Under the pieces are notes generated by a model. That model did not search any database. It saw only the letters and a program-made list of their open reading frames with translations, and was not told where the DNA came from. DNA of 64,000 nucleotides from Opitutales bacterium (GTDB lineage Bacteria; Verrucomicrobiota; Verrucomicrobiia; Opitutales; UBA9783), in the NCBI GenBank assembly GCA_016286235.1, contig JAEESJ010000013.1, forward strand, positions 1,950 to 65,949. Direction: 5' to 3'. Shown here one piece after another: positions 50,221 to 51,032 of this stretch (positions within the stretch are counted from its first letter, which is position 1; every line of letters begins with the position of its first letter). Both the position numbers and the translations under genes were made by a program.

Positions 50221-50511
50221 ATGGAAGCAACACGACTGAGCATCACCTTCAGACCGAAGATTTACGATTTCATCAAGAAGTTGGCGGATGACCGTCAGGT
50301 TTCTTTCAATCAGTGCGTTCAGGACTGCCTTGAAGAAAAGATGAACCGAACGGAAGAGGAGCGGACGGCTTTTACGAGGGAAGAGCTCGATCGCATGATA
50401 AAGGAAGGAGACAAAGAATTGGCAAGAGGCGAAACAAGATCGTTCAATTCCGTTGAAGAAATGTTGAAGGCACTCCATAAGGAATGCGAACAAAAAAATG
50501 CAACAAAATGA
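50221..50511 (+). CDS. ribbon-helix-helix antitoxin (family copy A2)
   Basis: 96 aa: MEATRLSITFRPKIYDFIKK...REELDRMIKEGDKELARGETRSFNSVEEMLKAL. It aligns over its full length with A1, A3 and A4. Its stop overlaps the downstream ATG (ATGA at 50508-50511). Confidence 0.75.
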   Translation: MEATRLSITFRPKIYDFIKKLADDRQVSFNQCVQDCLEEKMNRTEEERTAFTREELDRMIKEGDKELARGETRSFNSVEEMLKALHKECEQKNATK

Positions 50512-51032
50512 CGGATGTTGATTTAACACAGGCAGAAGCGGATCGTTTGATTGTCATGGATAAATATCCGTTAAAAGCAAATGAACATCGTTGCTACACT
50601 TTCCCGAATGCAGACGGGACGCGTTTGGAAATTCCGTTTATATCATCCGATAGAAAAGAAGATTTCGTACTAAATTTTTGCCGAAGAAAAATTGTTTTGG
50701 AAAAAAGAAATCATTTACTTCGGGCAAAAAAGACTATTCTTTTGGTGAGGCTTGATGTTGCCAGTCCTCCTCATTTAAATCCCGACGGAGAAACGATTGG
50801 AGGAACGCATATTCATATCTATCGGGAAGGGTTTGGGGATCGCTGTGCATATCCCGTTCGTCCTGAGGATAATTTTTCGGATTTATCCGATCCTTTTATG
50901 ACGTTGGAAGATTTTATGCGAGAGAGTTTTTGCTTTGCGTGTTATTTCTTCACGCATAGGCTGACAAAGATTGCGTTCCTTACACTCTTGATACAGCTTC
51001 CGTATGATTTTCTTTTGTTCCTCCGTTGGTGA
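50508..51032 (+). CDS. unknown protein with HLNPDG...[12 protein letters not shown] motif (candidate toxin/effector; 3' end probably non-native)
   Basis: 174 aa from the ATG at 50508. The conserved-looking core is [40 protein letters not shown]. From about 50925 onward the frame reads antisense through the ERF C-terminus (F/L/C-rich), so the native C-terminus is probably lost. Confidence 0.55.
   Translation: [174 protein letters not shown]

What the first reader, a model, noticed from the sequence alone, without database searches (positions are those of the whole stretch)
50221..51032. Antitoxin paralog coupled to a non-YoeB partner (HLNPDG...THIHIYREG protein): candidate new toxin or effector
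Four RHH antitoxin paralogs occur in this window. All four are joined to the next gene by the same 4-nt ATGA overlap.

Three of the partners are YoeB. At 50508 the partner is instead an unrelated ~140-170-aa ORF. Its most conserved-looking segment is [40 protein letters not shown]. I cannot place this in any characterised toxin fold from memory. It may correspond to an uncharacterised DUF.

Swapping of toxins on a conserved antitoxin chassis is a known way in which new type II toxins have been found. The pair has its own promoter-like element (50185-50214). Its 3' end runs antisense into the ERF gene, so it may be slightly truncated.
Basis: partly seen in the sequence, partly recalled or inferred. 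Interest (0 to 1): 0.7.

Follow-up and report, generated by a model that had tools for sequence, protein, structure and literature searches.

The report
Truncated orphan of a defence-candidate gene pair
The "new toxin" is a 3'-truncated copy of DUF6978, the first gene of an already catalogued but untested two-gene phage-defence candidate (PADLOC PDC-M24), left in a decaying prophage island without its usual nuclease-like partner.

Summary
Four RHH paralogs each overlap the next gene by ATGA. Three partners are YoeB-like, two of them frameshifted. The fourth (50508-51032) is unrelated to YoeB.

It is not unplaced. It is Pfam DUF6978 (E 6e-34) and PADLOC PDC-M24A (E 1e-37), an untested "guilt-by-embedding" defence candidate.

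In 86 of 87 loci from many phyla, the gene next to DUF6978 is a downstream, overlapping gene of about 250 aa (DUF1828+DUF1829, PDC-M24B). Its predicted fold resembles PD-(D/E)xK nucleases. The RHH was found in only one of those 87 loci. Further look-ups showed it in the window's closest relatives.

The intact form is RHH-M24A-M24B. All homology to relatives stops at window base 50921. Compared with an L106-like relative, about 1.75 kb is missing: the last 19 codons of M24A, all of M24B, three small genes and the ERF 3' end. The ORF's last 36 residues are antisense ERF.

Sister contigs show several different inactivations of M24A or M24B, while the RHH stays intact (dN/dS 0.09-0.27), even where M24A is gone. 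Mu-like phages carry M24A-M24B without any RHH.

So this is a remnant, not a demonstrated RHH-neutralised toxin. Interest is low to modest.

The parts
50185..50214 (+). Sigma-70-like promoter match TTGACG-18-TAATAT. The RHH ATG lies 7 nt after the -10 hexamer, so the mRNA may be leaderless (inference).
   Evidence: The scan match is 9/12, but the number of matches in the region equals the shuffle expectation. The hexamers are conserved in L088, L101, L103 and L092. Similar TTGAC(A/G) elements precede the other three RHH paralogs.
50221..50511 (+). Intact 96-aa RHH-type gene. It is a paralog of the three YoeB-linked antitoxin genes. It is probably a transcriptional regulator or an orphan antitoxin.
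   Evidence: Paralogs found by tblastn. Family hits are weak RHH/Arc/AvtR hits only. Orthologs of 79-100% identity exist. dN/dS is 0.09-0.27, including between loci that lack M24A.
50508..50921 (+). Codons 1-138 of a DUF6978 / PDC-M24A gene, the part homologous to relatives. Its start overlaps the RHH stop (ATGA).
   Evidence: PF22398 at E 6e-34. PDC-M24A at E 9.6e-38. 90% amino-acid identity to the 157-aa P0001. Nucleotide homology to L088, L089, L001, L092-94 and L106 ends at 50920/50921 in every case. W113C is a window-specific change at a position that is W in 93% of the family.
50921..50922 (.). Deletion junction. Compared with an L106-like relative, about 1.75 kb is missing: the M24A 3' end, M24B, three small minus-strand genes and the ERF 3' end.
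   Evidence: Window 50131-50921 matches L106 3336-4125, and window 51078-51853 matches L106 6032-6805. No M24B is found in a six-frame search of the window (best E 1.9).
50922..51032 (+). Non-homologous read-through tail of 36 hydrophobic residues plus the stop codon. It is antisense to ERF and is not part of the native protein.
   Evidence: In alignment A1 the native end (YCNIKVLPFIDRDLFYAYE) is replaced.
50922..51525 (-). ERF recombinase pseudogene. It has a frameshift near 51308 and lacks about 30 C-terminal codons. Its present stop at 50883-50885 lies in M24A-derived DNA.
   Evidence: PF04404 fragments on two ORFs. Comparison with the intact 231-aa ERF of L106. Weak phage ERF hits.
49540..50184 (+). 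C-terminal nuclease-domain fragment of a terminase large subunit. It is syntenic with the RHH-M24A module in relatives.
   Evidence: Terminase_6C at E 0.0036 and phrog_2 at E 5e-10. Nucleotide homology to L088, L092, L101, L103 and L106.
59526..60040 (-). Paralogous RHH gene (59771-60040) with an intact YoeB/Txe toxin gene (59526-59774). This is the reference module of the 'chassis'.
53499..54025 (-). Paralogous RHH gene (53756-54025) with a frameshifted YoeB-like gene.
24143..24675 (+). Paralogous RHH gene (24143-24427) with a frameshifted YoeB-like gene (from 24424).

Best explanation
The ORF at 50508-51032 is the broken first gene (M24A, Pfam DUF6978) of a two-gene cassette, PADLOC 'phage defence candidate' PDC-M24. 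The partner that is constant across phyla is the downstream, overlapping gene M24B (DUF1828+DUF1829, about 250 aa).

In this gut-bacterial lineage the cassette sits in a prophage-derived island between a polysaccharide-synthesis gene and the Kdo transferase gene. There it has acquired in front an RHH gene with its own promoter, of the same paralog family as the local YoeB antitoxins. This gives a three-gene operon, RHH-M24A-M24B.

In the window, about 1.75 kb is missing compared with an L106-like relative (junction 50921|50922). The missing stretch holds the last 19 codons of M24A, all of M24B, three small genes and the 3' end of a convergent ERF gene. What remains is an intact RHH gene followed by a tail-swapped M24A remnant, so PDC-M24 is not complete here.

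How the intact system probably works is inferred, not shown:
- M24B is the effector, a PD-(D/E)xK-type nuclease domain behind an N-terminal sensor or regulatory domain.
- M24A is co-translated with M24B and is its regulatory or sensing subunit. Its conserved His/Asn/Asp/Glu cluster (H89, N91, D93, H101, H103, E107, D111) would be a metal- or ligand-binding site.
- The RHH is an optional operon repressor, or an orphan antitoxin that can still serve the YoeB paralogs. It is not a dedicated antidote to M24A.

The confidence given (0.8) is for the identity and remnant state of the locus. The mechanism of the intact system is much less certain, about 0.35.
For: Identity: PF22398 at E 6e-34; PDC-M24A at E 1e-37.

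Partner:
- Downstream genes of relatives hit PDC-M24B at E 3e-96 and DUF1828+DUF1829.
- 86 of 87 loci have M24B immediately downstream on the same strand.
- The one exception, L053, is itself C-terminally altered.
- In called genes the A stop and B start overlap by 4-14 nt.

RHH is optional:
- The RHH HMM hits only L001 among L001-L087.
- There is no RHH in the Mu-like phage copies.

Lineage-specific trio: L088 carries RHH 96 aa, M24A 157 aa and M24B 252 aa, and shares 90% nucleotide identity with window 49954-50921.

Truncation and deletion. No M24B is present in the window. The 174-aa allele is found on a single contig, while all other members of its 90% cluster are 157 aa.

Decay series in sister contigs:
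- L101: in-frame A::B fusion plus a stop codon in B.
- L106-108: deletion across the A/B boundary.
- L092-99: RHH start lost and A frameshifted, with B intact.
- L103-105 and L109-111: A and B gone, RHH kept.

Selection: RHH dN/dS is 0.09-0.27, including between loci without M24A.

M24B fold: AF2 pLDDT 91.8. The best Foldseek PDB hits are Can2, Card1, NucS, the R2 restriction-like endonuclease, Bax1, McrC, MspJI and Kpn2I, with E from 2e-4.

Defence context: at least 19 of 87 loci sit directly after hsdS, and others next to MmeI-type RM or KwaB-like genes. PDC systems are defined as untested RM/BREX/DISARM-embedded cassettes (bioRxiv 10.1101/2024.01.29.577857). DUF1829 occurs in a validated defence protein, DS-6B/HipAD (PMC13092281).
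Against: - No experiment exists for PDC-M24, and no paper mentions DUF6978 function. All mechanism statements are inference.
- The M24B nuclease call rests on fold hits with low TM-scores (0.28-0.38). The catalytic D...(D/E)xK residues were not mapped.
- DUF6978 has no detectable structural or sequence relative in the PDB. Its role as regulator, enzyme or toxin is open.
- M24A dN/dS between the window and relatives is still low (0.12-0.28). The truncation is therefore recent, or the remnant could retain some activity.
- The junction could not be confirmed in an independent assembly. An assembly artefact is not formally excluded.
Confidence: 0.8

Rival explanations
1. First reader's model. RHH-DUF6978 is a genuine type II toxin-antitoxin pair: DUF6978 is a new toxin neutralised by the RHH, created by swapping the toxin on the YoeB antitoxin chassis.
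For: - The ATGA coupling is identical to the three RHH-YoeB modules.
- The RHH-M24A junction is conserved in L088, L101 and L106.
- The RHH keeps the C-terminal G-x5-(F/Y)-x-(S/T)-x-(E/D)-E-(M/V) motif shared with the YoeB-linked paralogs.
- In every decayed relative in which the RHH looks damaged (L001, L092-99), M24A is either accompanied by M24B or itself frameshifted. No case was seen of intact M24A alone.
Against: - Intact M24A occurs without any RHH in 86 of 87 loci, including its closest Mu-like phage relatives.
- The partner that is conserved across loci is M24B.
- The RHH persists under purifying selection after M24A is lost.
- The window copy lacks 19 conserved C-terminal residues and carries W113C.
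Confidence: 0.08
2. M24A-M24B is itself a toxin-antitoxin-like abortive-infection pair. Either M24A is the labile antitoxin of the M24B nuclease, or M24B neutralises an M24A toxin. On this reading the window retains half of an addiction module.
For: - Strict pairing and overlapping genes.
- Antitoxin-first gene order, with a nuclease-like second gene.
- One predicted DUF6978-DUF1828 fusion protein, P0306.
- DUF1829 occurs in the proposed antitoxin-like DS-6B (PMC13092281).
Against: - L093 and L095 carry a frameshifted M24A with a full-length M24B. That allele, P0005, was seen on eight contigs.
- The window and L053 keep most of M24A without M24B.
- Loss in either order therefore appears tolerated, unlike a classical addiction pair. 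The surviving copies may, however, be inactive.
Confidence: 0.25
3. The truncation is not biological. The 50921|50922 junction is an assembly chimera between two convergent regions, and the real genome carries an intact RHH-M24A-M24B.
For: - The 174-aa allele exists on one contig only.
- The junction 24-mer is absent from JGI metagenomes and IMG/VR.
- The 100% identical contig L100 ends before the junction.
Against: - Both flanks belong to the same island in the same order and orientation in L106-108, so a simple internal deletion explains the junction.
- The same region shows other pseudogenisation: an ERF frameshift, a terminase fragment and two frameshifted YoeB genes.
- Sister contigs show comparable independent deletions.
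Confidence: 0.05

Closest known systems
PADLOC PDC-M24 (phage defence candidate, multi-gene no. 24; A = DUF6978, B = DUF1828+DUF1829)
   Same: The window protein matches the M24A HMM at E 1e-37. Relatives carry M24B at E 3e-96. As in the definition of PDCs, many copies are embedded in RM loci.
   Different: The window lacks M24B and the last 19 codons of M24A. This lineage adds an upstream RHH gene that is not part of the catalogued system. PDC-M24 has never been tested.
RHH (RelB/ParD-like) - YoeB/Txe type II toxin-antitoxin modules
   Same: Same RHH paralog family, the same ATGA coupling and a similar TTGAC-type upstream element as three such modules in the window.
   Different: The downstream gene has no similarity to YoeB/RelE/ParE. 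It is followed in intact relatives by a third gene. It occurs without the RHH in nearly all genomes.
Sensor-domain plus PD-(D/E)xK nuclease effectors (Can2/Card1, NucS, MspJI, McrC)
   Same: These are the best Foldseek PDB matches of the M24B model. They share a two-domain layout with a C-terminal restriction-endonuclease-like domain.
   Different: TM-scores are low (0.28-0.38) and identity is 8-16%. The catalytic motif was not verified and no CARF signature was tested. This comparison concerns the missing partner, not the window gene.
DS-6B of HipAD / DS-6 (DUF3037+DUF1829)
   Same: It shares the DUF1829 domain. It is the non-kinase partner in a validated two-gene defence system and is predicted to bind its partner and DNA (PMC13092281).
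   Different: Its partner is a HipA kinase, not DUF6978, and its N-terminal domain is DUF3037, not DUF1828. No direct comparison was run here.

Membership tests
Pfam DUF6978 (PF22398) | HMM score above the gathering threshold | tested here: met
   117.6 bits against a cut-off of 29.6, E 6e-34, profile positions 1-130 of 133.
Pfam DUF6978 (PF22398) | Full-length protein of about 149-157 aa with the conserved C-terminal (Y/F)CN(I/V)xxxPxIxxxLF segment | tested here: not met
   Homology ends at residue 138, and the native tail is replaced by 36 unrelated residues.
PADLOC PDC-M24 system | M24A gene present | tested here: met
   PDLC04538 at E 9.6e-38.
PADLOC PDC-M24 system | Adjacent M24B (DUF1828+DUF1829) gene | tested here: not met
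   A six-frame HMM search of the whole window gives a best E of 1.9. M24B is present in 86 of 87 related loci.
PADLOC PDC-M24 system | Protects against phage | not testable with these tools
   PDC systems are explicitly untested candidates (bioRxiv 10.1101/2024.01.29.577857). No paper mentions PDC-M24 or DUF6978 function.
Type II toxin-antitoxin pair (RHH antitoxin plus toxin) | Two small adjacent, co-oriented, translationally coupled genes | tested here: met
   ATGA overlap at 50508-50511.
Type II toxin-antitoxin pair (RHH antitoxin plus toxin) | The pairing of the two families is conserved across homologs | tested here: not met
   The RHH HMM hits 1 of 87 DUF6978 loci. The RHH is kept where DUF6978 is deleted.
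Type II toxin-antitoxin pair (RHH antitoxin plus toxin) | The upstream protein belongs to a recognised antitoxin family | tested here: inconclusive
   Only sub-threshold hits: PSK_trans_fac E 0.001, RelB/ParD NCBIfam E 0.03-0.07 for the paralogs, and AvtR E 0.03. Three paralogs do sit beside YoeB-like genes.
Type II toxin-antitoxin pair (RHH antitoxin plus toxin) | The toxin arrests growth and is neutralised by direct binding of the antitoxin | not testable with these tools
   This needs expression and pull-down experiments. Natural occurrence of intact M24A without the RHH argues against dependence on it.
YoeB/Txe (RelE/ParE superfamily) toxins | Sequence match to the family models | tested here: not met
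   No YoeB, RelE or ParE hit in Pfam or NCBIfam for 50508-51032. The model has no significant PDB fold match.
PD-(D/E)xK nuclease fold (for the missing partner M24B) | Restriction-endonuclease-like core with catalytic D...(D/E)xK | tested here: inconclusive
   The fold hits are dominated by PD-(D/E)xK nucleases (E 2e-4 to 8e-2). Conserved D166, E177 and a consensus K are present. Spacing is non-canonical and the residues were not mapped on the structure.

The most novel reading that the evidence does not exclude
The RHH-DUF6978 pair could be a working module in its own right. On this reading an antitoxin-type RHH, recruited from RelB/ParD-YoeB modules, controls by repression or direct binding a DUF6978 effector that keeps activity after losing M24B. 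The new 36-residue hydrophobic tail might even give it a new, possibly membrane-directed, function. That would make DUF6978 a new toxin or effector fold, documented with a natural toxin swap on an antitoxin chassis.
Probability: 0.07. Interest if true: 0.55.

Novelty: new member of a known kind. Interest (0 to 1): 0.22.

Why it matters
The window locus itself matters little, because it is a broken remnant. Three points have modest value for people working on PDC-M24 / DUF6978.

1. This lineage has a three-gene form, with a borrowed antitoxin-type RHH and promoter in front. That is a concrete example of TA regulatory parts being reused by a defence-candidate cassette.
2. The natural decay series (A lost, B lost, both lost, RHH kept) suggests that neither M24A nor M24B behaves as a strictly addictive toxin or antitoxin, and that the RHH has a function of its own.
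3. The partner M24B has a restriction-endonuclease-like predicted fold, and the pair rides as cargo in Mu-like phage morphogenesis modules and behind hsdS genes. Together these give a testable effector hypothesis for an untested candidate system.

Tried and rejected
- Fold of DUF6978: the AF2 model of a full-length relative is good (pLDDT 87.3). Foldseek found nothing significant against the PDB (best E 0.17, TM 0.25 or less). BFVD gave one uncharacterised phage protein at E 1.8e-3. phmmer and a profile search against PDB sequences found nothing. The weak PH-domain-like hits were not taken as evidence.
- A/B relationship: hhalign of DUF6978 against M24B shows no relationship.
- Domain fusions: longer DUF6978 proteins were scanned for clues. 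Only unannotated extensions were found, plus one DUF6978-DUF1828 fusion and one 8xMP fusion.
- Literature: DUF6978 appears only as a name in two S. aureus omics papers, and PDC-M24 appears in none.
- Independent copy of the junction: an exact 24-mer search found nothing in JGI metagenomes or IMG/VR. The window's own 174-aa product could not be located on a record.
- IMG/VR searches with the M24A and ERF fragments found no relatives.
- ERF C-terminus: it could not be compared with phage records beyond a weak core match. L106 later supplied the intact ERF.
- My first terminase dN/dS value used a guessed reading frame and is disregarded.
- Rejected idea, chance ORF: contradicted by the Pfam E-value and by 1,467 family representatives in the 50%-identity library.
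- Rejected idea, divergent YoeB/RelE: no sequence or fold support.

Full report
**1. What is at the coordinates**

- The region holds a 96-aa ORF (50221-50511, +). A longer ORF follows; its homology-supported start is the ATG at 50508, which overlaps the upstream stop as ATGA, and it runs to 51032.
- tblastn with the 96-aa product finds three paralogs in the window, at 24143-24427(+), 53756-54025(-) and 59771-60040(-). Each overlaps its downstream gene by ATGA.
- The three downstream genes are YoeB-like. The one at 59526-59774 is intact and hits TIGR02116 Txe/YoeB at E 7e-23. The other two are frameshifted before the conserved C-terminus.
- The RHH assignment rests on weak hits only: PSK_trans_fac E 0.001, Arc-like phrog E 2e-4, and the AvtR structure at E 0.03 with a profile.

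**2. Identity of the non-YoeB partner**

- The product of 50508-51032 is Pfam DUF6978 (PF22398, E 6e-34, 117.6 bits against a cut-off of 29.6, profile positions 1-130 of 133).
- In PADLOC-DB it is PDC-M24A (E 9.6e-38).
- PDC systems are 145 untested cassettes found embedded in BREX, DISARM or type I RM loci (bioRxiv 10.1101/2024.01.29.577857).
- I found no paper on DUF6978 function or on PDC-M24.
- The family is moderately large: 1,467 50%-identity representatives at E 1e-3 or better. Almost all are stand-alone proteins of 145-155 aa.

**3. The gene is truncated and its partner is gone**

- In alignment with relatives, the window protein is homologous only to residue 138 (...TLEDFMR). The native end (YCNIKVLPFIDRDLFYAYE in the 90%-identical P0001) is replaced by 36 hydrophobic residues that are the antisense reading of ERF.
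- At the DNA level, homology to L088 (90%), L089, L001, L092-94 and L106 ends at window base 50920/50921 in every case.
- In every close relative, and in 86 of 87 loci overall, DUF6978 is followed on the same strand by a gene of about 250 aa. Where genes were called, the two overlap by 4-14 nt. This gene carries DUF1828+DUF1829 and hits PDC-M24B at E 3e-96.
- The 80 species-representative genomes in this set span Acidobacteriota, Nitrospirota, Planctomycetota, Proteobacteria, Chloroflexota and one archaeal MAG.
- The one exception (L053) is also C-terminally altered.
- A six-frame HMM search finds no M24B anywhere in the window (best E 1.9).
- L106-108 show the fuller layout of the same island: terminase fragment, RHH, M24A, M24B remnant, three small minus-strand genes, then an intact convergent ERF of 231 aa.
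- Window 50131-50921 aligns to L106 3336-4125, and window 51078-51853 aligns to L106 6032-6805. Compared with that layout, about 1.75 kb is missing in the window. This also removes about 30 C-terminal codons of ERF.
- ERF additionally carries a frameshift near 51308. The gene upstream of the RHH is only the C-terminal nuclease fragment of a terminase.
- The 174-aa allele is known from a single contig, while all other members of its 90% cluster are 157 aa.
- The window copy also has W113C at a position that is Trp in 93% of the family.

**4. Is the RHH the partner?**

- An HMM built from the four window paralogs and L001 hits only L001 among loci L001-L087.
- Mu-like phage copies, lying between Mu F and the Mu protease, have intact M24A-M24B and no RHH.
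- The RHH-M24A linkage is nevertheless real in the window's nearest relatives, found by later look-ups.
  - L088 has RHH (96 aa, ATGA overlap), M24A (157 aa) and M24B (252 aa), all intact.
  - L106-108 and L101 keep the same RHH/M24A junction.
- These contigs share the window's chromosomal setting: S1 protein, Polysacc_synt_2, island, Kdo transferase.
- They form a decay series:
  - L001: RHH N-terminus replaced.
  - L092-99: RHH start lost and M24A frameshifted, with M24B intact.
  - L106-108: deletion across the A/B boundary.
  - L101/102: M24A codons 16-157 deleted, giving an in-frame A::B fusion, plus a stop in B.
  - L103-105 and L109-111: A and B both gone, RHH kept next to RhuM.

- RHH dN/dS is 0.09-0.27 in all pairs, including pairs that both lack M24A. 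The RHH is therefore maintained for a reason independent of M24A.
- M24A dN/dS between the window and relatives is 0.12-0.28. The truncation is therefore recent relative to the divergence.

**5. How the intact system probably works (inference)**

- The AF2 model of a full-length DUF6978 is confident (pLDDT 87.3). It has an N-terminal helix, a beta-meander and a C-terminal helix.
- The model has no significant match in the PDB or BFVD, and no sequence match to PDB chains.
- Its conserved residues cluster in H89-x-N-P-D-G...H101-x-H103-x-Y-R-E107-G-F-G-D111. This looks like a metal or ligand site.
- The M24B model (pLDDT 91.8) matches, in order, Can2, Card1, NucS, the R2 restriction-like endonuclease, Bax1, McrC, MspJI and Kpn2I (E from 2e-4). 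These are proteins whose nuclease domain is PD-(D/E)xK.
- TM-scores for these matches are low, and I did not map catalytic residues.
- DUF1829 also occurs in DS-6B, the partner protein of the validated HipAD/DS-6 defence system (PMC13092281).
- At least 19 of 87 M24A-M24B pairs lie directly behind hsdS. Others lie by MmeI-type RM or KwaB-like genes.
- My preferred model:
  - M24B is the nuclease effector, with an N-terminal regulatory domain.
  - M24A is its co-translated regulatory or sensing subunit.
  - In this lineage the RHH is an added operon repressor or an orphan antitoxin.
- The decay series argues against strict addiction in either direction: a frameshifted A with full-length B was seen on eight contigs, and most of A survives without B in the window and in L053.

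**6. Promoter**

- TTGACG-18-TAATAT at 50185-50214 is a 9/12 match. Such matches are as frequent as in shuffled sequence.
- The hexamers are conserved in four relatives, and the other three RHH paralogs have TTGAC(A/G) upstream.
- The ATG lies 7 nt after the -10 hexamer, so a leaderless transcript is possible. This was not tested.

**7. Verdict**

An antitoxin-type RHH really is coupled to a non-YoeB conflict-system gene in this lineage.
- The gene is not unplaced, its usual partner is M24B and not the RHH, and the window copy is a truncated orphan.
- An assembly artefact at the junction is unlikely but could not be excluded with independent data.
- Novelty: a degraded member, with a lineage-specific RHH add-on, of a catalogued but untested candidate system.
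- Interest: 0.22.

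Noticed in passing
window 24424-24675 (+) and 53499-53759 (-): Two of the three YoeB-like toxin genes are frameshifted. The conserved ...RRINxQHRLVY...CWSHY end continues in another frame. Their RHH genes are intact. Only 59526-59774 is an intact YoeB.
   Followed up: partly
window 60181-61287 (+): An RtcB RNA ligase gene (PF01139, E 7e-63) lies divergently next to the only intact RHH-YoeB module. 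RtcB repairs RNA ends of the kind left by RNA-cleaving toxins, so the adjacency may be meaningful.
   Followed up: no
window 47100-54700: The region between Polysacc_synt_2 (45201-47054) and the Kdo transferase gene (54804-56078) is a prophage-derived island. It holds a terminase fragment, an ERF pseudogene, an M78 peptidase and an RHH-YoeB remnant. Its content differs in every related contig (L001, L101, L103, L106-108, L109).
   Followed up: partly
L101 6288-6905; L102: The first 15 codons of M24A are fused in frame to M24B from about residue 8. M24B then has a premature stop near HMM position 195. This is an independent deletion allele of the same cassette.
   Followed up: yes
L002-L008, L090, L091: Intact M24A-M24B pairs sit as cargo between the Mu F and Mu protease/scaffold genes of Mu-like phage morphogenesis modules, from gut metagenome contigs and one human-gut MAG.
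   Followed up: partly
L009, L010 and about 17 other genome loci, just upstream of position 4001: M24A-M24B lies directly after a type I RM specificity gene (Methylase_S), often with an MNT-type nucleotidyltransferase ORF in front. Other loci lie next to MmeI-type RM or a KwaB-like gene.
   Followed up: partly
L053 4001-4582: This is the only genome locus without M24B. It has an elongated 194-aa M24A ORF whose family match stops at HMM position 142, a second orphan with an altered C-terminus like the window's.
   Followed up: partly
L001 4622-4999: The RHH ortholog here is a 125-aa ORF. Its first 46 residues or so are unrelated to the RHH and replace the RHH's N-terminal beta-strand. By eye they resemble a terminase N-terminal fragment; this was not tested.
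   Followed up: no
L100 2868-3659 versus window 49729-50520: This contig is 100% identical to the window over 792 bases. Upstream it continues into M50 peptidase and LptF/G genes instead of the window's context. This is either another arrangement of the island or a chimeric metagenome contig.
   Followed up: no
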